A DNA stretch of 64,000 bases from Proteobacteria bacterium CG1_02_64_396 (GCA_001872725.1 MNWR01000015.1:3257-67256), one strand, 5' to 3'. Positions 24,333-35,209 are shown, numbered from the stretch's first letter. A program made the numbers and translations. The notes: generated from the letters alone by a model not told the origin.

Positions 24333-24730
24333 GCTCAACGGGACGACCTTTTCCCCGTAGCGGCCCCACCCCACCCTCCACCGTCGCCCCCGCGCCCGCT
24401 GGATCCCCGCCTGCGCGGGGATGACGCCGGGATGGGCGGGGGATGGGGGGCTTCGGGTCAGGCTTGGCACATGGGGATGCGAAAGCCCCAACCGGGCCGG
24501 GAGTTGGAGGCACAGCCCGAAGCCACCCAACAACGGCACTCTTTTCCAGGAGTCTGCCGGTCTTTCGTTGTCGTGGGGTAGAAGGAATAACGACAGCCCT
24601 TTCGCTGATGAGGGGCAAGAAAGACAACCTCTCGCTGAGGGATAGGATTCAGGTAGACGCATTCGGGTCGACAGGTACCCTTCTCCCCTTCGGTAAGCCC
24701 TACCCCATTTTGGCTGAGGTCTCCTGCGGA

Positions 24731-27700
24731 ATGGATCCGTTCTTCGAGCAACCCATCCTCAACTCCCCCTACGAGTCTCCCTCCCGGCATTGGGAGTTGG
24801 ATGAGCACGGCCAACCAACCCAGCGGACCATTGAGCAACGGCGGAGTGCAGAATTCGTCACCCCCATTCCCAAACCCAAAAAGCGCAAAGGGGGGGAGGG
24901 AAATTACCTGGCGTTGGATGAAGGATTTGGGCTGTCCACCCAGGACCAGCGTTACGAACACACCGGTTTGATCAACGCCCTGCGTGAAGAGGTGGCGCAG
25001 TGGCGGCAATTGCCCCCGGCCCACTGGCGAGTGACCCCCGAAACAGCCCGATTGCTCCAGCATTGGCGACACCACCCGTTTGGGGGTGTGCGCCCATTCT
25101 TTTGCCAGGTAGAGGCGGCGGAAACCGCCATTTGGCTGACCGAAGTTGCCCCCCAAAGTGGAAAAACCGGGGAACGGTTTTTGCGCCATCTGGAAGAGTC
25201 CAGCCAAGCAGCCAATCCCGATTTACTGCGTTTGGCCCTCAAGCTGGCCACCGGTGCAGGCAAAACCACCGTGATGGCCATGCTCATCGCTTGGCAAACC
25301 CTCAATGCCGTCCGACGCCCCAACAGCCGCAAATTCACCCGTGGGTTTTTGATCGTTACCCCCGGCATCACCATCAAGGACCGCCTGCGCGTCCTTCAGC
25401 CCAACGACCCGGACAGCTACTACAAGAGCCGCGAGCTGGTGCCCGGCGACATGATGGGCGACCTGGAACGGGCCAAGATCGTCATCACCAACTATCACGC
25501 CTTCAAACTGCGCGAACGTATGCCCCTGTCCAAGGGCGGTAGGCTGCTGCTGCAAGGCCGTGGCGGCGAAGCACTCGATACGTTGGAATCCGAAGGCCAG
25601 ATGATCCAGAGGGTCATGCCGGAGTTGATGGGCATGAAGAACATCCTGGTCATCAACGACGAGGCTCATCACTGCTACCGGGAGAAACCCAACCACGACG
25701 ACGAAAAGCTGAAAGGGGACGAGAAAAGGGAGGCGGAAGAAAACAACGAAGCAGCCCGTCTGTGGATTTCCGGTTTGGAGGCCGTCAACCGCAAGCTGGG
25801 CCTTAGCCGGGTGATCGACCTATCCGCCACCCCCTTCTTTCTGCGTGGTTCCGGTTATGCCGAGGGCACCCTGTTCCCCTGGACCCTCAGCGATTTCTCG
25901 CTGATGGACGCCATCGAATGCGGCATCGTCAAACTGCCGCGTGTGCCGGTGGCCGACAACATCCCCGGCGCCGAAGTGCCGGTGTTCCGCAACCTGTGGG
26001 AACACATCCGCAAAGACATGCCCAAGAAGGGGCGCGGCAAGGCCGAAGGACTCGACCCGCTTAAGTTGCCGACCCGCCTGCAAACCGCCCTCGAAGCCCT
26101 CTACGGCCATTACAAGAAAACCTACGATTTGTGGGAGCAGGCTGGAATCCAAGTGCCGCCCTGCTTCATCGTGGTTTGCAACAACACCTCGACCTCCAAG
26201 CTGGTGTACGACTACATCTCTGGCTTCCAGCGGCTAAACGACGATGGCAGCAGCAAGCTGGAGAACGGTCGGCTCCCACTGTTCCGCAACTTTGATGAAC
26301 ACGGCAATCCACTCGGCCGCCCCAAAACCCTGCTCATCGACAGCGAACAACTGGAATCCGGCGAGGCTTTGGATAACAGCTTCCGGGGCATAGCCGCTGA
26401 CGAAATCGAGCGCTTCCGCCGCGAGATCATCGAACGCACCGGCGACCCGCGTGCGGCCGACACCATCACCGACGCGGCCTTGCTGCGCGAGGTCATGAAC
26501 ACCGTCGGCAAGGCTGGCCGACTGGGCGACTCCATTCGCTGCGTGGTTTCGGTCTCCATGCTGACCGAAGGCTGGGACGCCAGCACCGTCACCCACGTCC
26601 TGGGCGTGCGCGCCTTCGGCACCCAGTTGCTGTGCGAACAGGTCATTGGCCGCGCCTTGCGCCGCCAGTCTTACGAACTCAACGAGGCAGGGCTGTTCAA
26701 CGTCGAATACGCCGACGTTCTCGGCATTCCCTTCGACTTCACCGCCAAACCGGTGGTCGCGCCGCCGCAACCGCCGCGCGAAACCATCCAGGTCAGGGCC
26801 ATCCGTCCCGACCGCGACGCTCTTGAAATCCGCTTCCCCCGCGTCCAGGGCTACCGGGTGGAACTCCCGGAAGAACGCCTCACCGCCGGGTTCAACGCCG
26901 ACTCCGTGCTGGAACTGACCCCCGATCTGGTTGGCCCCTCCATCACCCGCAACGCTGGCATCATCGGCCAGGATGTGGACCTGAACCTGGTCCACACCGG
27001 CGACATGCGCCATTCCACGCTGCTGTTTCACCTCACCCAGCGCCTGATCTACACCCGGTGGCGCGACCCCGGCGAGGAACCCAAGCTCTACCTGTTCGGC
27101 CAACTCAAACGCATCGCCAAACAATGGCTGGACACCTGTTTGGTTTGCAAAGGCGGCACCTACCCGGCCCAGCTCATGTATCAGGCCCTGGCCGACGTGG
27201 CTTGCGAACGCATCACCGCTGGCATCACCCGAGCGCTGATTGGTGAGCGCCCCATCAAAGCCGTGCTTGATCCGTACAACCCCACCGGCACCACCGCCCA
27301 CGTTAACTTCAGCACTGCGAAGAAAGACCGCTGGCAGACCGACGCCCGCCGCTGCCACCTCAACTGGGTCATTCTCGATAGCGGTTGGGAAGGCGAGTTT
27401 TGCCGCGTCGCCGAAGCCCATCCGCAGGTACGCGCCTATGTGAAGAACCACAACCTGGGGCTGGAGGTGCCGTACCGCTATGGCTCCGAAATGCGCACCT
27501 ACCTGCCCGACTTCGTCGTTCTTGTAGACGACGGCCATGGCGAGGATGACCTGCTGCACCTTGTGGTCGAGGTCAAAGGCTACCGGCGCGAAGACGCCAA
27601 GGAGAAGAAAGCCACGATGGAAACCTACTGGGTGCCGGGGGTGAACAACCTCAAGCAATACGGCCGCTGGGCCTTCGCCGAGTTCACCGAGGTCTGGCAG

Positions 27701-27775
27701 ATGCAGGACGACTTCGCCGCGAAGGTGGAGGCCGAATTCAGCAAGATGATCGGGCGGGTGGTGGATGGAAGCTGA
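24731..27775 (+). CDS. res: Type III restriction endonuclease Res subunit (SF2 DEAH helicase plus C-terminal PD-(D/E)xK nuclease). Start is uncertain; alternatives are 24443 and 24608.
   Basis: Motif I TGAGKTTVMA. Motif II ILVINDEAHHC. Motif VI QVIGRALRR. C-terminal nuclease motif PDFVVLVDD...LHLVVEVKG. Confidence 0.8.
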   Translation: MDPFFEQPILNSPYESPSRHWELDEHGQPTQRTIEQRRSAEFVTPIPKPKKRKGGEGNYLALDEGFGLSTQDQRYEHTGLINALREEVAQWRQLPPAHWRVTPETARLLQHWRHHPFGGVRPFFCQVEAAETAIWLTEVAPQSGKTGERFLRHLEESSQAANPDLLRLALKLATGAGKTTVMAMLIAWQTLNAVRRPNSRKFTRGFLIVTPGITIKDRLRVLQPNDPDSYYKSRELVPGDMMGDLERAKIVITNYHAFKLRERMPLSKGGRLLLQGRGGEALDTLESEGQMIQRVMPELMGMKNILVINDEAHHCYREKPNHDDEKLKGDEKREAEENNEAARLWISGLEAVNRKLGLSRVIDLSATPFFLRGSGYAEGTLFPWTLSDFSLMDAIECGIVKLPRVPVADNIPGAEVPVFRNLWEHIRKDMPKKGRGKAEGLDPLKLPTRLQTALEALYGHYKKTYDLWEQAGIQVPPCFIVVCNNTSTSKLVYDYISGFQRLNDDGSSKLENGRLPLFRNFDEHGNPLGRPKTLLIDSEQLESGEALDNSFRGIAADEIERFRREIIERTGDPRAADTITDAALLREVMNTVGKAGRLGDSIRCVVSVSMLTEGWDASTVTHVLGVRAFGTQLLCEQVIGRALRRQSYELNEAGLFNVEYADVLGIPFDFTAKPVVAPPQPPRETIQVRAIRPDRDALEIRFPRVQGYRVELPEERLTAGFNADSVLELTPDLVGPSITRNAGIIGQDVDLNLVHTGDMRHSTLLFHLTQRLIYTRWRDPGEEPKLYLFGQLKRIAKQWLDTCLVCKGGTYPAQLMYQALADVACERITAGITRALIGERPIKAVLDPYNPTGTTAHVNFSTAKKDRWQTDARRCHLNWVILDSGWEGEFCRVAEAHPQVRAYVKNHNLGLEVPYRYGSEMRTYLPDFVVLVDDGHGEDDLLHLVVEVKGYRREDAKEKKATMETYWVPGVNNLKQYGRWAFAEFTEVWQMQDDFAAKVEAEFSKMIGRVVDGS

Positions 27776-27782
27776 AACTGCA

Positions 27783-27872
27783 TTCAGGAGCATTTTCTTG
27801 GCGTCAGGAAAATGCTCCCTAGGTGGCGATGCGCACCATTTTGTTGGCGCCAACAAAATGGTTCGACAAGAG
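27783..27872. promoter_or_regulatory. Two adjacent palindromes in the res-dinD intergenic region.
   Basis: GGAGCATTTTC-N10-GAAAATGCTCC and a perfect 28-bp palindrome ACCATTTTGTTGGCGCCAACAAAATGGT. Confidence 0.3.
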
Positions 27873-27898
27873 GCCGGGCAGAAACGGGAGAAGAAGTC

Positions 27899-28747
27899 AT
27901 GAGCAACATCAAGTTGTTCGAGTCCAAGCACATCCGTTCGGCCTGGGACGAAGCCACCCAACGCTGGTACTTTGCCATTGTCGATGTCGTCGCAGCCTTG
28001 AGCGAAAGCGAGAACCCGCAGGTCTACTGGCGGGTGCTCAAGAAGCGCCTGCTGGCCGAGGGCAATGAAACCGTTACAGCTTGTAACGCCTTGAAGATGA
28101 CCGCAGCCGATGGCAAGCAGCGTCTGACCGACGTGGCGGATACCGAGCAATTGCTTCGGCTCATTCAGTCCATCCCCTCCCCCAAAGCCGAGCCGTTCAA
28201 ACGCTGGCTGGCCCAGGTGGGCTACGAGCGGCTGGAAGAAATCGAAAACCCCGAACTGGCCGCCGCACGTATGCGCGAGTTGTACAAAGCCAAGGGCTAC
28301 AGCGACGAATGGATCGAAAAGCGGGTGCGCGGCATCGCCATCCGCGACGAACTGACCCACGAATGGCAGAAGCGCGGCGTCAAGGAGCAGCGCGAATACG
28401 CCATCCTTACCGCCGAAATCAGCCGCGCCACCTTTGGCATGACCCCCGCCGAATACAAAACCTTCAAGAGTCTCGACAAGCCCGCCGACAACCTGCGCGA
28501 CCACATGAACGATCTGGAACTGATCTTCACCATGCTGGGCGAAGCCTCCACCACCGAGATTGCTCGTAATAAAGACGCGCAAGGCTACGGCGAGAACCGC
28601 GAAGCGGCCGTGGCGGGCGGCGCGGTGGCCGGACGGGCACGCCGCGACCTGGAGAAAAAATCCGGCAAGCGCGTCGCCAGCCCGGAAAACTACAAAGCCT
28701 TGCCCGAAGCCGTGGCACGCAAAAAGCTGAAGAAGAAGGAAGCCTGA
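27899..28747 (+). CDS. Bro-N / DinD-like (DNA-damage-inducible protein D family) protein.
   Basis: N-terminal Bro-N-like IRSAWDEATQRWYFAIVDVVAAL. C-terminal region resembles E. coli DinD. Lies between res and mod. Confidence 0.65.
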   Translation: MSNIKLFESKHIRSAWDEATQRWYFAIVDVVAALSESENPQVYWRVLKKRLLAEGNETVTACNALKMTAADGKQRLTDVADTEQLLRLIQSIPSPKAEPFKRWLAQVGYERLEEIENPELAAARMRELYKAKGYSDEWIEKRVRGIAIRDELTHEWQKRGVKEQREYAILTAEISRATFGMTPAEYKTFKSLDKPADNLRDHMNDLELIFTMLGEASTTEIARNKDAQGYGENREAAVAGGAVAGRARRDLEKKSGKRVASPENYKALPEAVARKKLKKKEA

Positions 28748-28749
28748 GC

Positions 28750-31605
28750 ATGGCCAAAGCACCGAAAAGAAAACTTAGCGTCGAAACCCTTACCCACGAC
28801 GCCACCCGCAAAAACATCCCCACCGCCGAATACCAATCGGTGATGCAGAAGGAAGAGCAGACGCCGGTTCGCGTGGCCTACCCTCGCAATGCTGCCGGGC
28901 AGGAGGAAGAAAAGCAGCGCCGCAACCGCGACCTGGACCCGCAACTGGTCTGGCGCGGCAAGGATGAACAAGACTGGTCCGACCTCGTCGTTCACGCCCC
29001 GCCGGTTTACATCCAGGAAAAGGTCCACCCCAAGGTGTTGATTGATGACCTGCGCCAGCAAAGCCAGGAGCAACAGGCAGCGGCGGGGCGTCAGGCGGGG
29101 AAATTACGGCAAGTCGACCTCTTCGCCGACTTCAACGGCCTGCCCGATAACAACGCCAAAACCGAGTTCTACCAGCACGACGGCCACTGGCAGAACCGCA
29201 TGATTTTGGGCGACAGCCTGCAAGTGATGGCCTCCCTGGCCGAGCGCGAAGGGCTGCGCGGTCAGGTGCAGTGCATCTATTTCGATCCGCCCTACGGCAT
29301 CAAATTCAACAGCAACTTCCAGTGGTCCACCACCAGCCGGGACGTGAAAGACGGCAACACCGACCACATCACCCGCGAGCCGGAACAGGTCAAGGCCTTC
29401 CGCGACACCTGGCGCGACGGCATCCACTCCTACCTCACTTACCTGCGCGACCGGCTGACTGTGGCGCGGGATTTGTTGACGGATTCCGGGTCGATCTTTG
29501 TGCAGATTGGGGATGAGAACGTGCACCGGGTACGGGCGGTGATGGATGAGGTGTTTGGGGATGGGAACTTCATTTCACAGATCGGATTTGCCAAGACTTC
29601 TGGCTCGACCGATGACTATCTTGGACAAACAACCGACTACCTGCTCTGGTATGCAAGAGATCGCCAGCAGGTGAAGTATCGAGCCGCACTCAAACGTAAA
29701 CGCCCAGGTGAAGCAGGTGGCACGAATTACAACAGGCTTAGAGATATCCTCGGCAATAGCCGGTCTATCAAGACTTCCGAGGATTTGTCGTCTCAGATTG
29801 AGACTGGCGAGCTACGCATTTATTCACTGGATAATCTGACTTCCCAGAGCGCGGGTCGTGATAAGGGCGAAGGGGCAGCTTCTTGGTTCGGCGTCGAGTT
29901 GGATGGACGCATACATAAGCCATCGCTATCCGTTCGTTGGAAAACAAACGAGAGCGGTATGGCACGGCTCAAAGCAGCTGGGCGCTTGGAAGCCACGGAG
30001 AAACGACTTGGATACGTTCGCTACCTCGATGATTTTCCCGCTGTACAAATAAATAACCGCTGGGAGGATGTGGCTGCAAGTTTCATGGCGGACAAGATGT
30101 ATGTTGTTCAGACATCACCGACCGTCATTCAACGCTGCCTCCTGATGACTACCGACCCCGGCGACTTGGTTCTCGACCCCACCTGCGGTTCCGGCACCAC
30201 CGCCTACGTCGCCGAACAATGGGGCCGCCGCTGGATCACCCTTGATACCTCCCGCGTCGCCCTGGCCCTGGCCCGAGCCCGCATCATGGGTGCCCGCTAC
30301 CCCTACTACCTGCTGGCCGACAGTCGCGAGGGGCAGATCAAGGAGGCCGAAGTCACCCGCACCGCGCCTTCCAGCCAACCCACACGCGGCAACATCCGCC
30401 ACGGCTTCGTCTACGAGCGCGTCCCCCACATCACCCTGAAATCCATCGCCAACAACAGCGAGATCGACGTCATCTGGAGCAATTGGCAGGCGAAGCTGGA
30501 ACCGCTGCGCGAGCAACTCAACCAGGCGCTGGGCAAACATTGGCAGGAATGGGAAATCCCCCGCGACGCCGAGGCCCAATGGCCCGATGCGGCGAAGAAA
30601 CTCCACGCCGACTGGTGGCAAGCCCGCATCACCCGCCAGAAGGAGATCGACGCCTCCATCGCCGCCAAGGCCGAGTTCGAATACCTCTACGACAAGCCCT
30701 TTGATGACAAGAAGAAGGTCCGCGTCGCCGGTCCCTTCACCGTGGAAAGCCTGTCGCCCCACCGCGTCCTGGCCGTCGATGAAAACGACGAACTGATCAA
30801 CAAGGTGGCCGAGCTGGAGCCCGGCTACGGCGAGGAACGCAGCTTTGTCCAGATGATCCTGGAAAACCTGAAGACCGCTGGCGTTCAGCAGGCCCACAAG
30901 GAAGACAAGATCAACTTCACCGCCCTGACCCCCTGGCCGGGCAACCTGGTTTGCGCCGAGGGCCGATACGAAGATGCCGGCGGTGAAAAACGCGCCGCCA
31001 TCTTCATCGGCCCCGAGTTCGGCACCGTCTCCCGCCCCGACCTGGTGGAGGCCGCCCGCGAGGCGGGCGACGCCGCTTTCGACGTGCTCATCGCCTGCGC
31101 CTTCAACTACGACGCCCATTCCTCCGAGTTCGACAAACTCGGCCGCATCCCCGTGCTCAAGGCCCGCATGAACGCCGACCTGCACATGGCCGAAGACCTG
31201 AAGAACACCGGCAAGGGCAACCTGTTCGTGATCTTCGGCGAGCCCGACATCGACATCCTCGACGCCGAAGATGGTCAGGTGCGGGTCAAGGTCAACGGCG
31301 TGGACGTGTTCCACCCCAACACCGGCGAAGTCCGCAGCGACGGCAGCGACGGCATCGCCTGCTGGTTCATCGACACCGACTACAACATGGAATCCTTCTT
31401 CGTCCGCCACGCCTACTTCCTGGGCGCCAACGACCCCTACAAAGCATTGAAGACAACCCTCAAAGCCGAAATCGACGAGGAGGCCTGGGCTACCCTGAAC
31501 AGCGATACCTCACGCCCCTTCGACAAACCCAAGTCCGGCCGCATCGCAGTGAAGGTGATCAATCACCTGGGGGATGAGGTGATGAAGGTGTTCAGGGTGG
31601 AGTGA
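28750..31605 (+). CDS. mod: Beta-class N6-adenine DNA methyltransferase (Type III Mod-like), 951 aa, with a ~330-aa C-terminal extension.
   Basis: Motif IV FDPPYG comes before motif I LDPTCGSGTT, which is the beta-class order. The start overlaps the upstream stop region. Confidence 0.8.
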   Translation: MAKAPKRKLSVETLTHDATRKNIPTAEYQSVMQKEEQTPVRVAYPRNAAGQEEEKQRRNRDLDPQLVWRGKDEQDWSDLVVHAPPVYIQEKVHPKVLIDDLRQQSQEQQAAAGRQAGKLRQVDLFADFNGLPDNNAKTEFYQHDGHWQNRMILGDSLQVMASLAEREGLRGQVQCIYFDPPYGIKFNSNFQWSTTSRDVKDGNTDHITREPEQVKAFRDTWRDGIHSYLTYLRDRLTVARDLLTDSGSIFVQIGDENVHRVRAVMDEVFGDGNFISQIGFAKTSGSTDDYLGQTTDYLLWYARDRQQVKYRAALKRKRPGEAGGTNYNRLRDILGNSRSIKTSEDLSSQIETGELRIYSLDNLTSQSAGRDKGEGAASWFGVELDGRIHKPSLSVRWKTNESGMARLKAAGRLEATEKRLGYVRYLDDFPAVQINNRWEDVAASFMADKMYVVQTSPTVIQRCLLMTTDPGDLVLDPTCGSGTTAYVAEQWGRRWITLDTSRVALALARARIMGARYPYYLLADSREGQIKEAEVTRTAPSSQPTRGNIRHGFVYERVPHITLKSIANNSEIDVIWSNWQAKLEPLREQLNQALGKHWQEWEIPRDAEAQWPDAAKKLHADWWQARITRQKEIDASIAAKAEFEYLYDKPFDDKKKVRVAGPFTVESLSPHRVLAVDENDELINKVAELEPGYGEERSFVQMILENLKTAGVQQAHKEDKINFTALTPWPGNLVCAEGRYEDAGGEKRAAIFIGPEFGTVSRPDLVEAAREAGDAAFDVLIACAFNYDAHSSEFDKLGRIPVLKARMNADLHMAEDLKNTGKGNLFVIFGEPDIDILDAEDGQVRVKVNGVDVFHPNTGEVRSDGSDGIACWFIDTDYNMESFFVRHAYFLGANDPYKALKTTLKAEIDEEAWATLNSDTSRPFDKPKSGRIAVKVINHLGDEVMKVFRVE

Positions 31606-31818
31606 TGGCCGACCGCCACCAATTCCTCATCTACCAAGCGTTTCGAATCGGATTTCGACCGCACGGTGAAGCAGTGGGCGGTGAAGACGGGGCTTGGTGG
31701 ATCGTGGGGAAGGTCGTCAATGAGCGGGGTGATCAAGTTGCCCCGGGAATATCTAACAACATCTAAATATGTCTAACTGTTTTTAGATAGAACCACCTAG
31801 AACTGGCTAGAGGCACCT

Positions 31819-33006
31819 ATGGACCCGATCAAAAATCCCTTTTCTCCCGGTGAGGGTGCGCCACCGCCCGAATTGGTCGGGCGCGACCCACTGATCGAGC
31901 AAGCACGTATTCTGCTGGGGCGGGTGAAGCAGAAACGTCCGGAAAAGAGTCTGCTACTGACTGGCTTGCGTGGTGTGGGCAAGACCGTGCTGCTGAACGA
32001 AATCGAGCGGATGGCGAGGGCCGTTGGCTATCAGACGATTTTGCTGGAAGCGCAGGAGGAAAAGCCGCTGGGCGAGCTCATCTACCCCGCGCTGCGAGGA
32101 CTGCTTTACGAGCTGGATCGGGTGGCTGGAGGGGGCGACAAGGTCAAACGCGGGCTGGCGGTGCTGCGCAGTTTTATCGGCAGCATCAAGCTGACGGTGG
32201 GCGATGTGGCGCTGGGGTTGGACATCGAGCCGGCCAAAGGCACGGCCGATAGCGGCGATCTGGAAATCGATCTGCCGAATCTGTTTGTGGCCATCGCCGA
32301 GGCGGCGCAAGAGCGCCAGAGCGCCGTGGCCATCCTGGTGGATGAAATCCAGTACCTGAGCCAGAAGGAACTGGGGGCTCTCATCATGGCGATGCACAAG
32401 ATGCAGCAGAAGCAGTTGCCGCTGGTGCTGCTCGCCGCCGGTTTGCCGGTACTTCCCGGTATGGCAGGGGAATCGAAGTCGTATGCCGAACGGTTGTTCA
32501 ATTTCCCGGACATCGGGGCGCTGTCGGCAGCGGACGCGGCCAAGGCATTACGCGATCCAGCCCATGAAGCGGGTGTCGAATTCCAGGAGGATGCGCTGCA
32601 AGAGGTGTTCTACCTGACGCACGGTTACCCCTACTTCATTCAGGAATGGGGTTACCAATCCTGGAATATCGCGGCGGCGAGTCCAATTACCTTGCAGACC
32701 GTGCAGGCCGCTACGCCAGAGGTGATCCGTCGGCTCGACAAGAATTTTTTCCGGGTGCGCTTTGATCGACTGACACCGGGGGAGAAGAACTTTTTGCGTG
32801 CGATGGCCCATCTTGGCCCCGAACACCATCGCACCGGCGACATCGCCACCGTGTTGGGCATGTCGGTCAAAGGGATAGGTCCGGCTCGCTCCAAGCTGAT
32901 CAAGAAGGGAATGATCTACAGCCCGGCGCACGGCGACATGGCATTCACTGTGCCGCTGTTCGATGAGTTCATGATTCGCGCCATCCCCGAATTTATTCCC
33001 GGTTGA
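31819..33006 (+). CDS. P-loop NTPase of the Orc1/Cdc6 or Arch_ATPase (AAA_16-like) type with a C-terminal winged-helix-like region.
   Basis: FSPGEG...LVGRDPLIEQ precedes Walker A GLRGVGKT. Walker B ILVDEIQY. 395 aa. AT-rich upstream region. Confidence 0.7.
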   Translation: MDPIKNPFSPGEGAPPPELVGRDPLIEQARILLGRVKQKRPEKSLLLTGLRGVGKTVLLNEIERMARAVGYQTILLEAQEEKPLGELIYPALRGLLYELDRVAGGGDKVKRGLAVLRSFIGSIKLTVGDVALGLDIEPAKGTADSGDLEIDLPNLFVAIAEAAQERQSAVAILVDEIQYLSQKELGALIMAMHKMQQKQLPLVLLAAGLPVLPGMAGESKSYAERLFNFPDIGALSAADAAKALRDPAHEAGVEFQEDALQEVFYLTHGYPYFIQEWGYQSWNIAAASPITLQTVQAATPEVIRRLDKNFFRVRFDRLTPGEKNFLRAMAHLGPEHHRTGDIATVLGMSVKGIGPARSKLIKKGMIYSPAHGDMAFTVPLFDEFMIRAIPEFIPG

Positions 33007-33014
33007 AACCGCCC

Positions 33015-35147
33015 ATGGACTTGCGCATTGCCGATACCTTCACCGACAGCCTTGCCCGTCTGACCGGCGAGGAGCAGAAGGCCGTCAAGACGACCGCCTT
33101 CGACCTGCAACTGAACCCGGCCAATCCGGGCATGAGTTTCCACAAGCTGGACAAGGCGCGGGACAAGAACTTCTGGTCGGTGCGGGTTAGCAGCGATATT
33201 CGGCTGATCGTGCATCGCACCGAAGCCAGCTTGTTGCTGTGCTATGTGGATCACCACGACAAGGCCTATGACTGGGCCAGTCGCCGCAAACTGGAAACCC
33301 ATCCCAAAACCGGGGCGGCCCAGTGGGTGGAAATCCGCGAACGGGTGGAGGAGGTGCGGGGGCCCTATCGGGCCGAGGTGGAAACCTCCATCCCTGTGGC
33401 TGCATCCAGCCACGCAAAACCGCCGCTGTTTTCAGGCCGGACTGACGATGAATTGCTGGGTTATGGCGTTCCCGTGGAATGGCTGGCCGATGTACGTCAG
33501 GCCGACGAGGACAGCCTTCTGGAGCTGGCCGACCATCTACCAGCCGAGGCGGCCGAGGCCCTGTTGGAACTTGCCACCGGCGGCAAGCCGCAAGTGACAC
33601 CCCCGACGGCGGGGGTTGATCCCTTCAGCCATCCCGACGCGCAGCGCCGCTTCCGGGTCATGAACGATGTGGAAGAACTGGAACGTGCCCTGGCGTTTCC
33701 TTGGGAAAAGTGGACGGTTTTCCTGCACCCGGCCCAACGGCAGTGGGTGGAGCGCGACTACAGCGGACCTGTGCGGATTGCCGGTTCGGCCGGTACGGGC
33801 AAGACCATCGTCGCGCTGCATCGCGCTGTTTTTCTGGCACGCAGTCAGCCCGAAGCCCGCGTGTTGCTGGCTACCTTCTCGGAAACCCTGGCCAATGCCT
33901 TGCGTGCCAAGCTCCGGCGATTGATCAGCAACGAACCCCGTTTGGCGGAGCGGCTGGAAGTGCATGCCATGAATGCCATTGGCGAACGGCTCTATGAACA
34001 GCAATTCGGGCGGCCACATATTGCCGCGCGGGAGGTGATCAAGCGCTTCATGACAGAAGCCGTTAACCAGTTGATGGCAAAGGAAAACCCGGGCCTTAAA
34101 TTCAGCGTCAACTTTCTGCTGACGGAATGGGAAGACCTGGTCGATGCCTGGCAACTGGATGGCTGGGAGGCCTATCGCGATGTGAAGCGCTTGGGCAGAA
34201 AAACCCGCCTGCCGGAGCAGCAACGTGCCGTGTTTTGGTCGGTCTTCGATGCGGTTCGCACGCGTCTGAAGGCGGATGGCCTGCTCACCCATGCATCCAT
34301 GTTCAGCAAACTGGCCACCCATTTGGCGCAGCGCAAACATCCCCCCTTCGACTACGTCGTGGTCGATGAGGTGCAGGACGTCAGCGTCGCGCAGTTGCGT
34401 TTCCTGGCCGCCATGGGCGCAACGATGGGCCTGGGTCGACCGAACAGCCTTTTTTTTGCTGGCGACCTGGGGCAGCGGATTTTTCAGCAGCCGTTTTCTT
34501 GGAAGTCGCTGGGCGTGGATGTACGCGGGCGTTCGCGCACCCTGCACATCAATTACCGCACTTCGCACCAGATCAGGGTGCAGGCCGACCAGCTCCTGGG
34601 GCCGGAAATTTCTGATGTGGATGGCAACAAGGAAGAACGGCGCGGGACGGTTTCCGTATTCAACGGGCCGTCGCCGGTTGTTGCCACGTTCGAGAGTGAA
34701 GAGGCAGAAATTGAGGCAGTCGGCATTTGGCTGGCATCACGCAGCAAAGAGGGCGTGGCCTCCCATGAAATCGGCGTATTCGTGCGCTCGGATGCCGAAC
34801 TGGAACGCGCCCGTGCCGCAGTCGACAAGGCTGGGCTGCCGTTCAGGGTGCTTGATGAGCATGTTGAAACGGTCAGCGGCCAGGCCTCCATCAGCACCAT
34901 GCACCTGGCCAAAGGTCTGGAGTTCCGGGCCGTTGTGGTGATGGCCTGCGATGATGAAGTGATCCCGCTGCAAACACGGATTGAAGCGGTGGCCGACGAT
35001 GCCGATTTGGAGGAGGTCTACAACACCGAGCGCCATCTGCTTTATGTGGCGTGTACCCGTGCCAGGGATCAGTTGCTGGTGAGTGGGGTGCGGCCTGTCT
35101 CGGAGTTTCTGGACGACTTGGGCATTACAACGGGGAGGTTTTTGTAA
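33015..35147 (+). CDS. UvrD/Rep-type SF1 helicase with an N-terminal RelE/ParE-toxin-like domain. Alternative start is a TTG at 33003 overlapping the upstream stop.
   Basis: N-terminus SFHKLDKARDKNFWSVRVSSDIRLIVHRTEASLLLCYVDHHDKAY is RelE/ParE-like. Helicase motifs GSAGTGKT, VVVDEVQD, FAGDLGQRI, STMHLAKGLEF, YVACTRAR. Confidence 0.75.
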   Translation: MDLRIADTFTDSLARLTGEEQKAVKTTAFDLQLNPANPGMSFHKLDKARDKNFWSVRVSSDIRLIVHRTEASLLLCYVDHHDKAYDWASRRKLETHPKTGAAQWVEIRERVEEVRGPYRAEVETSIPVAASSHAKPPLFSGRTDDELLGYGVPVEWLADVRQADEDSLLELADHLPAEAAEALLELATGGKPQVTPPTAGVDPFSHPDAQRRFRVMNDVEELERALAFPWEKWTVFLHPAQRQWVERDYSGPVRIAGSAGTGKTIVALHRAVFLARSQPEARVLLATFSETLANALRAKLRRLISNEPRLAERLEVHAMNAIGERLYEQQFGRPHIAAREVIKRFMTEAVNQLMAKENPGLKFSVNFLLTEWEDLVDAWQLDGWEAYRDVKRLGRKTRLPEQQRAVFWSVFDAVRTRLKADGLLTHASMFSKLATHLAQRKHPPFDYVVVDEVQDVSVAQLRFLAAMGATMGLGRPNSLFFAGDLGQRIFQQPFSWKSLGVDVRGRSRTLHINYRTSHQIRVQADQLLGPEISDVDGNKEERRGTVSVFNGPSPVVATFESEEAEIEAVGIWLASRSKEGVASHEIGVFVRSDAELERARAAVDKAGLPFRVLDEHVETVSGQASISTMHLAKGLEFRAVVVMACDDEVIPLQTRIEAVADDADLEEVYNTERHLLYVACTRARDQLLVSGVRPVSEFLDDLGITTGRFL

Positions 35148-35209
35148 TTTTCGGCGGTCTGCGTTGTAACCAACACATGGCGCGGTCGAGTGCCCTTTTT
35201 TGCAACAGG

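What the first reader, a model, noticed from the sequence alone, without database searches (positions are those of the whole stretch)
31819..35147. Candidate undescribed two-gene defence module: Arch_ATPase/Orc1-like NTPase plus UvrD-like helicase carrying an N-terminal RelE/ParE-toxin-like domain
This is a tightly linked pair in which the helicase start overlaps or abuts the ATPase stop. The pair sits inside the island next to an R-M system. The architecture is reminiscent of Gabija (ATPase plus UvrD-like helicase), but the ATPase belongs to a different family: it is a small STAND/Arch_ATPase-like P-loop protein, not an ABC/OLD ATPase with Toprim. The helicase has a ~110-aa N-terminal RelE/ParE-fold domain (motif WSVRVSSDIRLIVHRT...LLCYVDHHDKAY) fused through a linker to a compact SF1A core. 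I am not aware of this combination being a named defence system. A toxin-like ribonuclease domain tethered to a helicase and gated by an NTPase suggests an abortive-infection effector.
Basis: partly seen in the sequence, partly recalled or inferred. Interest (0 to 1): 0.75.

Follow-up and report, generated by a model that had tools for sequence, protein, structure and literature searches.

The report
Restriction system with toxin-helicase and guests
The two genes are real and the helicase does carry a RelE-type toxin domain, but they are not a pair: the helicase is the conserved third gene of a very widespread Type III-like restriction-modification system, and the ATPase is one of many unrelated genes lodged inside that system.

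Summary
Both ORFs exist as described. The ATPase is 31819-33006. The helicase runs to 35147, with its true start most likely at ATG 33015. The helicase N-terminus is a RelE/YoeB/YafQ-fold domain (AlphaFold2 model plus Foldseek) joined to an intact SF1 UvrD core.

Only 6 of 80 helicase loci carry the ATPase. Only 7 of 67 testable ATPase loci carry the helicase. Elsewhere the ATPase is a solitary 1.26-kb cassette with its own conserved leader, set among housekeeping genes.

The helicase is instead linked to homologues of the window's upstream res gene (NCBIfam BPTD_3080 restriction endonuclease) and mod gene (about 950 aa, N6_N4 methyltransferase). This holds in 38 of 41 deep genome loci and 19 of 19 testable viral contigs. 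The order is fixed: res - [slot 1] - mod - [slot 2] - helicase.

Both slots hold variable defence-type cargo. In the window these are Bro-N/PDC-S13 in slot 1 and the ATPase in slot 2. A scar of a deleted RhuM gene lies at 31605-31686.

The helicase is a full-length homologue (32% identity) of an ArmD-like helicase in an ARMADA Type II-like locus. ArmD was reported in 2025 to be essential for that system. I found no description of the res-mod-helicase trio itself.

The parts
24731..27775 (+). res: SF2 helicase-endonuclease of the BPTD_3080 family. It is the first conserved gene of the frame. The ORF can be extended upstream to 24443, but homologues and the NCBIfam profile begin at about codon 97.
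   Evidence: Pfam ResIII plus RE_endonuc. NCBIfam NF046055 scores 1376 bits against a cut-off of 800, over residues 101-1094. ATG at 24731. Homologues at 64-89% identity (full-length matches) lie upstream of the helicase in 35 of 41 deep loci.
27812..28747 (+). Slot 1 cargo: a Bro-N domain protein. It is embedded between res and mod and is not part of the conserved frame.
   Evidence: Pfam Bro-N. PADLOC candidate PDC-S13, E=1e-125. Among the 80 helicase loci it is present only in L003. Slot 1 is empty in 17 of 36 complete frames.
28750..31605 (+). mod: a 951-aa N6/N4 DNA methyltransferase. It is the second conserved gene of the frame.
   Evidence: Pfam N6_N4_Mtase. Full-length match to PADLOC MTase_III PDLC03632, 1619 bits. 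Found upstream of the helicase in 67 of 80 loci overall, 38 of 41 deep loci and 19 of 19 testable viral contigs.
31605..31686 (+). Scar of a deleted RhuM-family cargo gene. About 11 N-terminal codons (MADRHQFLIYQ) are joined out of frame to about 17 C-terminal codons (KRFESDFDRTVKQ).
   Evidence: blastn and tblastn against the intact RhuM gene in slot 2 of the closest relative, L003:9001-9990. RhuM is a recurrent slot 2 cargo.
31748..31818 (+). Leader of the ATPase cassette. It holds three 10-nt direct repeats (AAYATCTAAC, 31748-31777) and an inverted copy (31778-31789). It is probably a promoter or operator.
   Evidence: the repeat finder. The leader is conserved together with the ATPase in unrelated genomic contexts. 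Its function is inferred.
31819..33006 (+). Slot 2 cargo: an AAA_16 P-loop ATPase with a probable C-terminal winged helix. It is a self-contained mobile single-gene cassette and not a constant partner of the helicase.
   Evidence: Pfam. More than 8000 homologues; the top 120 are 394-399 aa (nearly all 395) and 88-100% identical. Cassette limits 31749-33006. It occurs without the helicase in about 90% of loci.
33015..33335 (+). RelE/YoeB-fold domain of the helicase (residues 1-107). This includes a conserved C-terminal beta-hairpin extension.
   Evidence: AlphaFold2 model plus Foldseek against PDB. Invariant residues are R63, H81, D82, Y85, W87, G100 and Q103, and they are shared with ArmD-like proteins. 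The register against YoeB places H43, R63 and H81 on E46, R65 and H83 (weak).
33336..35147 (+). Linker and helical region, then the SF1 UvrD-type helicase core (core from about 33726). This is the third conserved gene of the frame and is an ArmD-like protein.
   Evidence: Pfam UvrD-helicase over residues 238-491 and UvrD_C. Motifs intact. 32% identity end to end with the fourth gene of an ARMADA II-like locus, E=4e-93.
35179..35194 (+). Terminator-like hairpin followed by a T-run, 32 nt after the helicase stop. It is the probable end of the operon.
   Evidence: Pattern scan only. Such hits are no more frequent here than in shuffled sequence, so this evidence is weak.

Best explanation
Window 24731-35147 is one composite defence locus. 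Its conserved frame is a three-gene, Type III-like restriction-modification system:
- res, an SF2 helicase-endonuclease of the BPTD_3080 family;
- mod, an N6/N4 methyltransferase of about 950 aa;
- a RelE-fold/UvrD SF1 helicase homologous to ArmD of ARMADA Type II.

The frame has two intergenic slots, res|mod and mod|helicase, that collect unrelated defence-type genes. In this window slot 1 holds a Bro-N/PDC-S13 gene. Slot 2 holds the AAA_16 ATPase, which arrived as a self-contained cassette with its own leader after a RhuM gene was deleted. The ATPase-helicase adjacency is therefore an accident of embedding, not a functional pairing.

Proposed mechanism (inferred, not shown). Mod marks host DNA. 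Res translocates on and cuts unmodified DNA. The ArmD-like helicase is a required third subunit. Its ATP-driven motor acts on the invading nucleic acid. Its tethered RelE/YoeB-type RNase domain appears to keep the catalytic Arg and His and is probably active. That domain would add an RNA-directed arm, cleaving transcripts or ribosome-bound mRNA at or after restriction.

The ATPase most likely acts on its own as an autoregulated DNA-binding NTPase.
For: SHOWN: linkage of the helicase to res and mod.
- tblastn with the window's res and mod finds them upstream of the helicase, on the same strand and in the same order, in 67 of 80 loci and in 38 of 41 loci with at least 9 kb of upstream sequence.
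The 80 kept span more than 10 phyla.
- Independent replicate on IMG/VR contigs: 19 of 19 testable loci have mod upstream, and none has the ATPase.
- A minimal res-mod-helicase trio with empty slots lies on a Pseudomonas avellanae plasmid, with IS elements nearby on both sides. A 50%-identical version with hypothetical genes in both slots lies on a Rhizobium plasmid.
- Pairwise identities of the helicase co-vary with mod (r=0.50, Mantel p=0.001) and with res (r=0.38, p=0.004).

SHOWN: the slots carry variable cargo.
- Slot 2 is occupied in 60 of 67 loci (median 1.8 kb). Slot 1 is occupied in 19 of 36 complete frames.
- The ORFs that abut the helicase start include IetS/Peptidase_S8, HerA, SIR2, GmrSD, AbiJ, AAA_15/21, RloB, RhuM, AAA_14/DUF4143 and DUF6946.
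- A RhuM scar lies at 31605-31686.

SHOWN: the ATPase is independent.
- Co-occurrence is 6 of 80 and 7 of 67.
- The cassette 31749-33006 is conserved as a unit in housekeeping contexts.

SHOWN: the helicase belongs to the ArmD-like family.
- 32% identity end to end (E=4e-93) with the last gene of an E. coli plasmid locus. That locus encodes an SNF2 protein, an Eco57I-type methyltransferase, a DEAD helicase with an MZB/DUF1998 domain, and the helicase.
- Walker A K263 and Walker B D451 here correspond to K266 and D454 in ArmD (PMC12458937).
- The RelE fold is confirmed. The catalytic-site equivalents are invariant.

FROM THE LITERATURE.
- Deleting armD abolishes ARMADA II defence, as does the Walker A mutation K266A. 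Defence is direct rather than abortive (PMC12458937). A second study reports a weaker requirement for armD (10.1101/2025.09.22.677730).
- Embedding of defence genes inside multi-gene systems is documented for Hma, BREX, DISARM and Type I R-M (10.1101/2024.01.29.577857).
Against: - No experiment bears on this system. Restriction, methylation specificity, RNase activity and any physical res-mod-helicase complex are all inferred.
- PADLOC gives no hit for res. Its nuclease assignment rests on NCBIfam naming and on one Pfam RE_endonuc hit barely above threshold (23.9 bits against 23.4).
- Three deep loci (L006, L021, L073) show the helicase with no mod within 10 kb. Linkage is therefore not absolute, or slot 2 can exceed 10 kb.
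- res and mod identities do not co-vary significantly (r=0.15). This indicates heavy recombination inside the frame.
- The register against YoeB catalytic residues comes from a non-significant HMM alignment (E=1.3) and from my recollection of the YoeB active site.
- ARMADA data cannot be transferred automatically at 32% identity and with different partner proteins.
Confidence: 0.8

Rival explanations
1. The ATPase and the RelE-UvrD helicase form a dedicated two-gene abortive-infection system. In it the STAND/Orc-like NTPase senses infection and releases the ribonuclease-helicase effector.
For: The genes abut with an 8-nt gap on the same strand. The same ATPase-helicase adjacency recurs in L004, L053, L054, L060 and L062 and in about ten metagenome contigs. 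Both proteins have intact NTPase motifs. Gabija offers an ATPase plus UvrD precedent; GajB models hit the helicase at about 1e-19.
Against: Each gene occurs without the other in about 90% of loci. In the co-occurrences that reach far enough upstream, the ATPase sits in slot 2 of the res-mod-helicase frame, and dozens of unrelated genes occupy that same position elsewhere. The ATPase brings its own conserved leader. It also lives next to housekeeping genes.
Confidence: 0.04
2. Guard model. The frame is a normal Type III R-M. The RelE-UvrD helicase is not part of the restriction reaction. It is a latent suicide or back-up effector, held inactive by res and mod, like the PrrC anticodon nuclease with EcoprrI. 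Its RNase is unleashed when a phage anti-restriction protein disables the R-M enzyme.
For: The linkage to res and mod is strict. The toxin-fold domain appears to keep its catalytic residues, and no antitoxin gene is conserved next to it. The PrrC/EcoprrI precedent for an RNase embedded in an R-M operon is from my own knowledge.
Against: ARMADA II, which has the homologous ArmD, was reported to protect directly without growth arrest. ArmD ATPase activity was needed for protection itself (PMC12458937). Nothing in the sequence distinguishes a guard role from a core role.
Confidence: 0.2
3. Anchor model. The helicase is an independent single-gene defence or selfish gene. It merely marks one edge of a recombination hotspot next to a mobile R-M unit. 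On this view it has no functional tie to res and mod.
For: Slot 2 can be long, up to at least 9.9 kb. Three deep loci lack mod within 10 kb. res and mod identities are poorly correlated, which shows frequent recombination.
Against: Gene order and strand are fixed across more than 10 phyla. A compact trio with overlapping or abutting genes exists on plasmids. The helicase co-varies with mod and res. The homologous ArmD is an essential subunit of another methyltransferase-based system (PMC12458937). Genes downstream of the helicase share no family, so the helicase is the end of the unit and not its middle.
Confidence: 0.1

Closest known systems
ArmD of ARMADA Type II (Bell et al. 2025 preprint, PMC12458937; also 10.1101/2025.09.22.677730)
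   Same: Both have the same full-length architecture: an N-terminal RelE-like domain, a helical linker and a GajB-like UvrD SF1 core. Lengths are about 700 aa. Identity is 32% end to end with the ArmD-like protein of an ARMADA II-like plasmid locus. The Walker A and B positions match. Each is the last gene of a co-directional operon that contains a large methyltransferase and an SF2 helicase.
   Different: The partner proteins are unrelated. ARMADA II has ArmA (Snf2/BrxHII-like), ArmB (PglX-like, about 1600 aa) and ArmC (YprA-like with DUF1998). The window has a ResIII/BPTD_3080 helicase-endonuclease and a methyltransferase of about 950 aa typed as Type III, with no YprA protein. The window's clade is 50-90% identical within itself and only 30-37% identical to the ARMADA-linked clade.
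Type III restriction-modification (EcoP15I-type Res/Mod)
   Same: There is a Res protein with a ResIII SF2 motor and a C-terminal endonuclease domain, and a Mod protein of the N6_N4 methyltransferase class. PADLOC types the methyltransferase as MTase_III over its full length. NCBI names the res family a restriction endonuclease.
   Different: The gene order is res-mod, not mod-res. Mod is about 300 aa longer. PADLOC's restriction-enzyme models do not hit res. A third conserved gene, the RelE-UvrD helicase, is present, and classical Type III systems lack it. Two slots collect embedded genes.
Hma and other 'embedding' host systems (Payne et al. 2021, PMC8565338; Payne et al. 2024 preprint, 10.1101/2024.01.29.577857)
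   Same: Both are three-gene frames built from a helicase, a methylase and an ATPase/helicase. In both, unrelated defence systems and candidates are nested between the core genes, and most loci carry cargo. The window's Bro-N cargo matches one of that group's candidate families, PDC-S13.
   Different: Hma uses an m5C methyltransferase and different helicase and ATPase families. No Hma model hit the ATPase, the helicase or res, and none was among the methyltransferase's 25 listed matches. The embedding survey covered Hma, BREX, DISARM and Type I R-M, not this Type III-like frame.
Gabija (GajA OLD-family ATPase-Toprim nuclease plus GajB UvrD helicase)
   Same: The helicase core is GajB-like; PADLOC GajB models score about 1e-19. 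An ATPase gene lies directly upstream in this window.
   Different: The ATPase is of the AAA_16/Orc type, with no ABC/OLD fold and no Toprim domain. It is not a conserved partner. GajB has no RelE domain. The best PADLOC hit is a generic NERD+UvrD candidate, not GajB.
RelE/YoeB/YafQ type II toxins
   Same: The N-terminal domain has the same fold, with TM 0.68-0.77 normalised to the toxin. Arg and His sit at the positions of the YoeB catalytic R65 and H83.
   Different: The domain is fused to a helicase and has no adjacent antitoxin gene. It carries an extra conserved beta-hairpin (W87...HPxTGxxQ103). Sequence similarity is below significance.

Membership tests
   The ATPase is present in 6 of 80 helicase loci. 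The helicase is adjacent in 7 of 67 ATPase loci. None of 21 viral-contig helicase loci has the ATPase.
ArmD-like RelE-UvrD helicase family | An N-terminal RelE-like domain fused to a GajB-like UvrD helicase, homologous over the full length. | tested here: met
   Foldseek finds the RelE superfamily. Pfam finds UvrD-helicase and UvrD_C. BLASTP against the ArmD-like protein of an ARMADA II-like locus gives 32% identity over residues 5-690, E=4e-93.
ARMADA Type II system | The operon encodes ArmA (Snf2/BrxHII-like), ArmB (PglX-like methyltransferase) and ArmC (YprA-like helicase with DUF1998/MZB) upstream of ArmD. | tested here: not met
   The window's upstream genes are a ResIII/RE_endonuc protein and an N6_N4_Mtase protein. 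Neither shows an SNF2, Eco57I/PglX or MZB domain. The E. coli plasmid comparator does have them.
Type III restriction-modification | A Res subunit with an SF2 ResIII motor plus an endonuclease domain. | tested here: met
   Pfam ResIII at 5.7e-9 and RE_endonuc at 3.9e-5, the latter just above threshold. NCBIfam BPTD_3080 restriction endonuclease, 1376 bits. No PADLOC restriction-enzyme model hits it.
Type III restriction-modification | A Mod subunit of the beta-class N6/N4 methyltransferases. | tested here: met
   Pfam N6_N4_Mtase at 8.6e-33. PADLOC MTase_III PDLC03632 matches over the full length.
Type III restriction-modification | A two-component enzyme (Res2Mod2 or Res1Mod2) that cleaves unmethylated, inversely oriented sites in an ATP-dependent way. 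| not testable with these tools
   This requires biochemistry. The conserved third gene argues that the system departs from the two-component definition.
Gabija | The GajA partner is an OLD-family ABC ATPase with a Toprim nuclease. | tested here: not met
   The ATPase is AAA_16/AAA_22. It has no AAA_15/AAA_21 or Toprim hit and no GajA hit in PADLOC.
Hma (PADLOC) | HmaA helicase, HmaB m5C methyltransferase and HmaC ATPase. | tested here: not met
   The methyltransferase is of the N6_N4 class, not m5C. No Hma model hit the ATPase, the helicase or res at the thresholds used, and none was among the 25 methyltransferase matches shown. The definition is from PMC8565338.
RelE/YoeB-type ribonuclease (catalytically active) | The RelE/ParE fold. 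| tested here: met
   There are 21 PDB matches at E<=0.001, all RelE-superfamily toxins (RelE, YoeB, YafQ, YoeB/ParE), with ParE2 just below.
RelE/YoeB-type ribonuclease (catalytically active) | A conserved catalytic acid/base set (YoeB E46, R65, H83, Y84). | tested here: inconclusive
   R63, H81 and Y85 are invariant. H43 is replaced by E in ArmD-like sequences. The register against YoeB comes from a non-significant alignment (E=1.3). Activity has not been tested.
STAND / Orc1-Cdc6-like NTPase (the ATPase) | A P-loop NTPase of the AAA_16 type followed by a helical domain and a winged-helix domain. | tested here: inconclusive
   AAA_16 is above threshold. ATPase_2, nSTAND6 and Orc1/Cdc6 are below threshold. 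The AlphaFold2 model is too poor to use (mean pLDDT 44); only residues 310-365 reach 70-84. The PDB profile search finds only weak P-loop hits to ORC4.

The most novel reading that the evidence does not exclude
The BPTD_3080-type res-mod-(RelE-UvrD helicase) trio is an undescribed defence family. It is very widespread (at least 599 species-level loci, more than 10 phyla, plasmids and proviruses) and unusually conserved (65-90% identity across phyla). In it a Type III-like restriction enzyme has acquired an ArmD-like motor with a live RelE-type RNase, which couples DNA restriction to RNA or translation attack. Its two slots would be a second large 'embedding' platform, like Hma, from which new defence genes can be mined. 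Candidates include the solitary AAA_16 ATPase cassette and an uncharacterised family of 132-171 aa.
Probability: 0.35. Interest if true: 0.7.

Novelty: new variant of a known kind. Interest (0 to 1): 0.5.

Why it matters
The proposed two-gene system is not real, so no new ATPase-gated toxin-helicase class should be claimed.

What is there still has value for three reasons.
- It shows that the recently described ArmD-type RelE-UvrD helicase is not confined to ARMADA. It is the fixed third gene of a much more common Type III-like R-M family that current tools would score as a plain R-M or miss altogether.
- It suggests that a tethered toxin-fold RNase and an SF1 motor are a reusable add-on to methylation-based immunity. 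That makes its role testable in a simpler three-gene system.
- The two cargo slots extend the "guilt-by-embedding" principle to a new host frame. They offer a ready list of candidate defence genes.

Tried and rejected
- Sequence search of the N-terminal 142 aa against PDB found nothing. A family profile gave only non-significant RelE3 and YoeB hits.
- The exhaustive representative search with the N-terminal domain returned only close family members and fragments. It revealed no new architectures.
- The AlphaFold2 model of the ATPase failed (mean pLDDT 44, shallow 88-95% identical alignment). I therefore ran no fold search on it. A PDB profile search gave only P-loop-level ORC4 hits.
- PADLOC and NCBIfam gave no named system for either gene.
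- Hma was considered and rejected: it uses an m5C methyltransferase, and no Hma model appeared among the listed PADLOC matches.
- MANTIS/Gao_RL was considered and rejected: its components are different.
- Gabija was rejected because there is no OLD/Toprim partner.
- No tRNA gene lies in the window to mark an integration site.
- The promoter scan found nothing useful on the + strand.
- Literature searches for the res-mod-helicase trio or for 'BPTD_3080' found no description. The library lacks most subscription journals and REBASE, so this absence is weak evidence.

Full report
**1. Observation**

The window has two co-directional ORFs at 31819-33006 (395 aa) and 33003-35147. The upstream-most start of the second ORF is a TTG that overlaps the ATPase stop. 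All homologues, however, begin M-x-F/L-R-I-A-D-T-F. That corresponds to ATG 33015, giving 710 aa and an 8-nt spacer.

The first protein matches Pfam AAA_16 (58.9 bits, above the cut-off) and AAA_22. It gives only sub-threshold hits to ATPase_2, nSTAND6 and Orc1/Cdc6.

The second protein has UvrD-helicase and UvrD_C domains. All SF1 motifs are intact, with Walker A K263 and Walker B D451. Its N-terminus gives only a weak HigB-like_toxin hit (E=0.005).

An AlphaFold2 model of residues 1-142 has block-mean pLDDT of 74-90 over residues 1-90. Foldseek against PDB found 21 matches at E<=0.001, and all are RelE-superfamily toxins. They include YoeB 2a6r (E=4.9e-5), RelE 3bpq (TM 0.77 normalised to the target), RelBE2 and YafQ; ParE2 follows just below.

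**2. Co-occurrence test**

I kept 80. They are 66-86% identical over the full length. They span Pseudomonadota, Acidobacteriota, Nitrospirota, Verrucomicrobiota, Armatimonadota, Bacillota, Ignavibacteriota, Zixibacteria, KSB1 and others.

tblastn with the ATPase found it in only 6 of those 80 loci.

In the other direction I examined 86 ATPase loci. Of the 67 with at least 600 bp downstream, only 7 have the helicase adjacent.

In L081-L086 a 91%-identical ATPase sits 2 nt upstream of an HrpA-type DEAH helicase, among redox and LPS-transport genes. Other neighbours are MFS transporters, AdoHcy hydrolase, histidine kinases and peptidases.

The two genes are therefore not a conserved pair.

**3. 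What the helicase is linked to**

Nearly every helicase locus has a co-directional ORF ending at the helicase start, but these ORFs belong to dozens of unrelated families. Their Pfam and PADLOC matches are typical of defence islands. They include Type III methyltransferase, AAA_14/DUF4143, IetS/Peptidase_S8, HerA, SIR2, GmrSD, AbiJ, AAA_15/AAA_21, RloB, RhuM and DUF6946.

tblastn with the window's other genes resolved the pattern.
- Homologues of the window's ResIII/endonuclease gene (64-89% identity for full-length matches) and of its 951-aa N6_N4 methyltransferase (mostly 64-82% for full-length matches, one at 51%) lie upstream of the helicase.
- They are on the same strand and in the order res - mod - helicase in 67 of 80 loci.
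- Most of the 13 misses are contig ends. Among 41 loci with at least 9 kb upstream, 38 have mod and 35 have res.
- An independent set of 21 IMG/VR contigs gives 19 of 19 testable loci with mod upstream, and none with the ATPase.

The gap between res and mod (slot 1) is either 19-104 bp or 0.4-3.9 kb. It is occupied in 19 of 36 complete frames. The gap between mod and the helicase (slot 2) is 2-123 bp in 7 loci. Otherwise it is 0.5-9.9 kb, with a median of 1.8 kb, and it is occupied in 60 of 67 loci.

Annotated plasmids show both states. A Pseudomonas avellanae plasmid has the bare trio with IS elements nearby on both sides. A Rhizobium plasmid has a 50%-identical version with hypothetical genes in both slots.

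Pairwise identities of the helicase co-vary with those of mod (r=0.50, Mantel p=0.001) and of res (r=0.38, p=0.004). res and mod do not co-vary significantly with each other (r=0.15), which points to frequent recombination inside the frame.

**4. Anatomy of the window locus**

- **res.** It is NCBIfam NF046055, "BPTD_3080 family restriction endonuclease" (1376 bits against a cut-off of 800). Its real start is probably ATG 24731, not 24443. No PADLOC model hits it.
- **mod.** It matches PADLOC MTase_III PDLC03632 over its full length.
- **Slot 1.** It holds a Bro-N protein that matches PADLOC candidate PDC-S13 at 1e-125. Among the 80 loci only the closest relative, L003, has it as well.
- **RhuM scar.** Immediately after the mod stop, 31605-31686 encodes the first 11 or so codons and the last 17 or so codons of the RhuM gene that fills slot 2 in L003. 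The two pieces are joined out of frame, so this is the scar of a deleted cargo gene.
- **ATPase cassette.** DNA similarity to ATPase loci in unrelated contexts starts at about 31749 and stops at the stop codon, 33006. The roughly 70-nt leader carries three 10-nt direct repeats (AAYATCTAAC) and an inverted copy. The repeats are conserved along with the gene.
- **End of the unit.** A terminator-like hairpin follows the helicase at 35179-35194 (weak evidence). The next gene is clpB on the opposite strand.

**5. What the helicase resembles**

A tblastn search of plasmids shows two clades. Proteins 50-64% identical to the window's helicase lie behind BPTD_3080 res and mod genes. Proteins 29-37% identical lie at the end of a different kind of operon. 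Those operons encode an SNF2 protein, a methyltransferase of about 1600 aa and a DEAD/DEAH helicase of about 2100 aa.

In the E. coli plasmid example, the large helicase carries the MrfA Zn-binding (DUF1998) domain and the methyltransferase is Eco57I/PglX-like. This is the composition described for ARMADA Type II. [quoted passage not shown]

The window's helicase aligns with that plasmid's ArmD-like protein from residue 5 to residue 690 (32% identity, E=4e-93). The Walker A and B lysine and aspartate lie within three positions of ArmD K266 and D454.

In ARMADA II all four genes were required for defence, ArmD K266A abolished it, and protection was direct rather than abortive (PMC12458937). A second preprint found a weaker requirement for armD (10.1101/2025.09.22.677730).

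**6. Is the RelE domain likely to be active?**

An alignment spanning both clades keeps R63, H81, D82, Y85, W87, G100 and Q103 invariant. H43 is replaced by Glu in the ARMADA-linked sequences.

A profile search places the domain in register with YoeB, so that H43, R63 and H81 fall on YoeB E46, R65 and H83. That match is not significant (E=1.3), and the identity of the YoeB catalytic residues rests on my own knowledge. I therefore rate this as suggestive only.

No antitoxin-like gene is conserved next to the helicase.

**7. Mechanism (inferred)**

I consider it most likely that Mod marks host DNA and Res translocates on and cleaves unmarked DNA. The ArmD-like protein would then be an obligatory third component. 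Its SF1 motor would act on the invading nucleic acid, and its tethered RNase would add an RNA-directed activity.

A guard role of the PrrC type is the main alternative: the RNase would fire when the R-M enzyme is inhibited.

The ATPase most probably works on its own. Its winged-helix region (the only confidently modelled part) may bind the leader repeats. Nothing links it functionally to the helicase.

**8. Comparison with known systems, and novelty**

Nesting of defence genes inside multi-gene systems is established for Hma, BREX, DISARM and Type I R-M (10.1101/2024.01.29.577857). Hma itself differs from the window's system: it uses an m5C methyltransferase (PMC8565338), and no Hma model appeared among the listed PADLOC matches. 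MANTIS/Gao_RL is also different.

I found no description of a Type III-like res-mod pair with an ArmD-like third gene, nor of embedding in such a frame. The searchable library is incomplete, and REBASE and current DefenseFinder models could not be consulted.

I therefore class what is really present as a new variant of known kinds: Type III-like R-M, plus an ArmD-type helicase, plus embedding. The finding as originally framed, a novel two-gene module, is not supported.

**9. Source of the window**

The ATPase is 100% identical to a protein that NCBI lists from [quoted passage not shown]. That suggests a groundwater metagenome-assembled genome as the source.

Noticed in passing
window 31605-31686: Scar of a deleted RhuM-family gene. 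Its first 11 or so codons and last 17 or so codons are joined out of frame, directly after the mod stop. The intact gene fills the same slot in the closest relative (L003:9001-9990). This is direct evidence of cargo turnover.
   Followed up: yes
window 31748-31818: The ATPase leader has three 10-nt direct repeats (AAYATCTAAC), one helical turn apart, and an inverted copy. The leader is conserved with the ATPase gene wherever that gene occurs. It looks like an operator or iteron for the protein's own winged-helix domain.
   Followed up: partly
L081-L086 (ATPase at 10001-11188 in L081): A 91%-identical copy of the ATPase sits 2 nt upstream of an HrpA-type DEAH helicase in an otherwise housekeeping neighbourhood. 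Here, as in the window, the ATPase lies directly in front of a helicase gene. I did not test whether this is more than coincidence.
   Followed up: no
window 31819-33006 and homologues: The ATPase is unusually conserved for a mobile gene. The top 120 database clusters are 394-399 aa (nearly all 395) and 88-100% identical, across Alpha-, Beta- and other Proteobacteria. It moves as a 1.26-kb unit with no recombinase or terminal repeats that I could see. How it moves is unexplained.
   Followed up: partly
window 24443-24730: The res ORF is probably over-extended by 96 codons. Homologues and the NCBIfam profile start at about residue 97-101, where there is an ATG (24731).
   Followed up: yes
window 27812-28747: The Bro-N domain protein embedded between res and mod matches PADLOC candidate PDC-S13 (E=1e-125). 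The same gene occupies slot 1 in L003 (96% identity).
   Followed up: partly
L001:8337-8852, L007, L015, L027, L044, L052, L059: The commonest immediate upstream neighbour of the helicase, apart from mod itself, is an uncharacterised protein family of 132-171 aa. It occurs in 7 of 80 loci. The one member whose individual Pfam and PADLOC tables were returned (L001) had no hit. It is a candidate embedded defence gene or a system accessory.
   Followed up: no
window 31350-31605 (mod C-terminus) and homologues: The last 85 or so residues of the methyltransferase are 82-93% identical across loci, against roughly 70% for the whole protein. This could be a recombination anchor for slot 2 exchange or a contact surface for the helicase.
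   Followed up: no
window 33270-33335 (helicase residues 86-107): The RelE fold is followed by a strongly conserved extra helix and beta-hairpin (W87, R90-R91, HPxTG, Q103). ARMADA ArmD-like proteins share it, and stand-alone RelE toxins lack it. It might occlude or regulate the RNase site in cis.
   Followed up: no
L006, L021, L073: Three helicase loci with 10 kb of upstream sequence lack a detectable mod gene, and L073 keeps only a res fragment. Either slot 2 can exceed 10 kb or the helicase sometimes survives alone.
   Followed up: no
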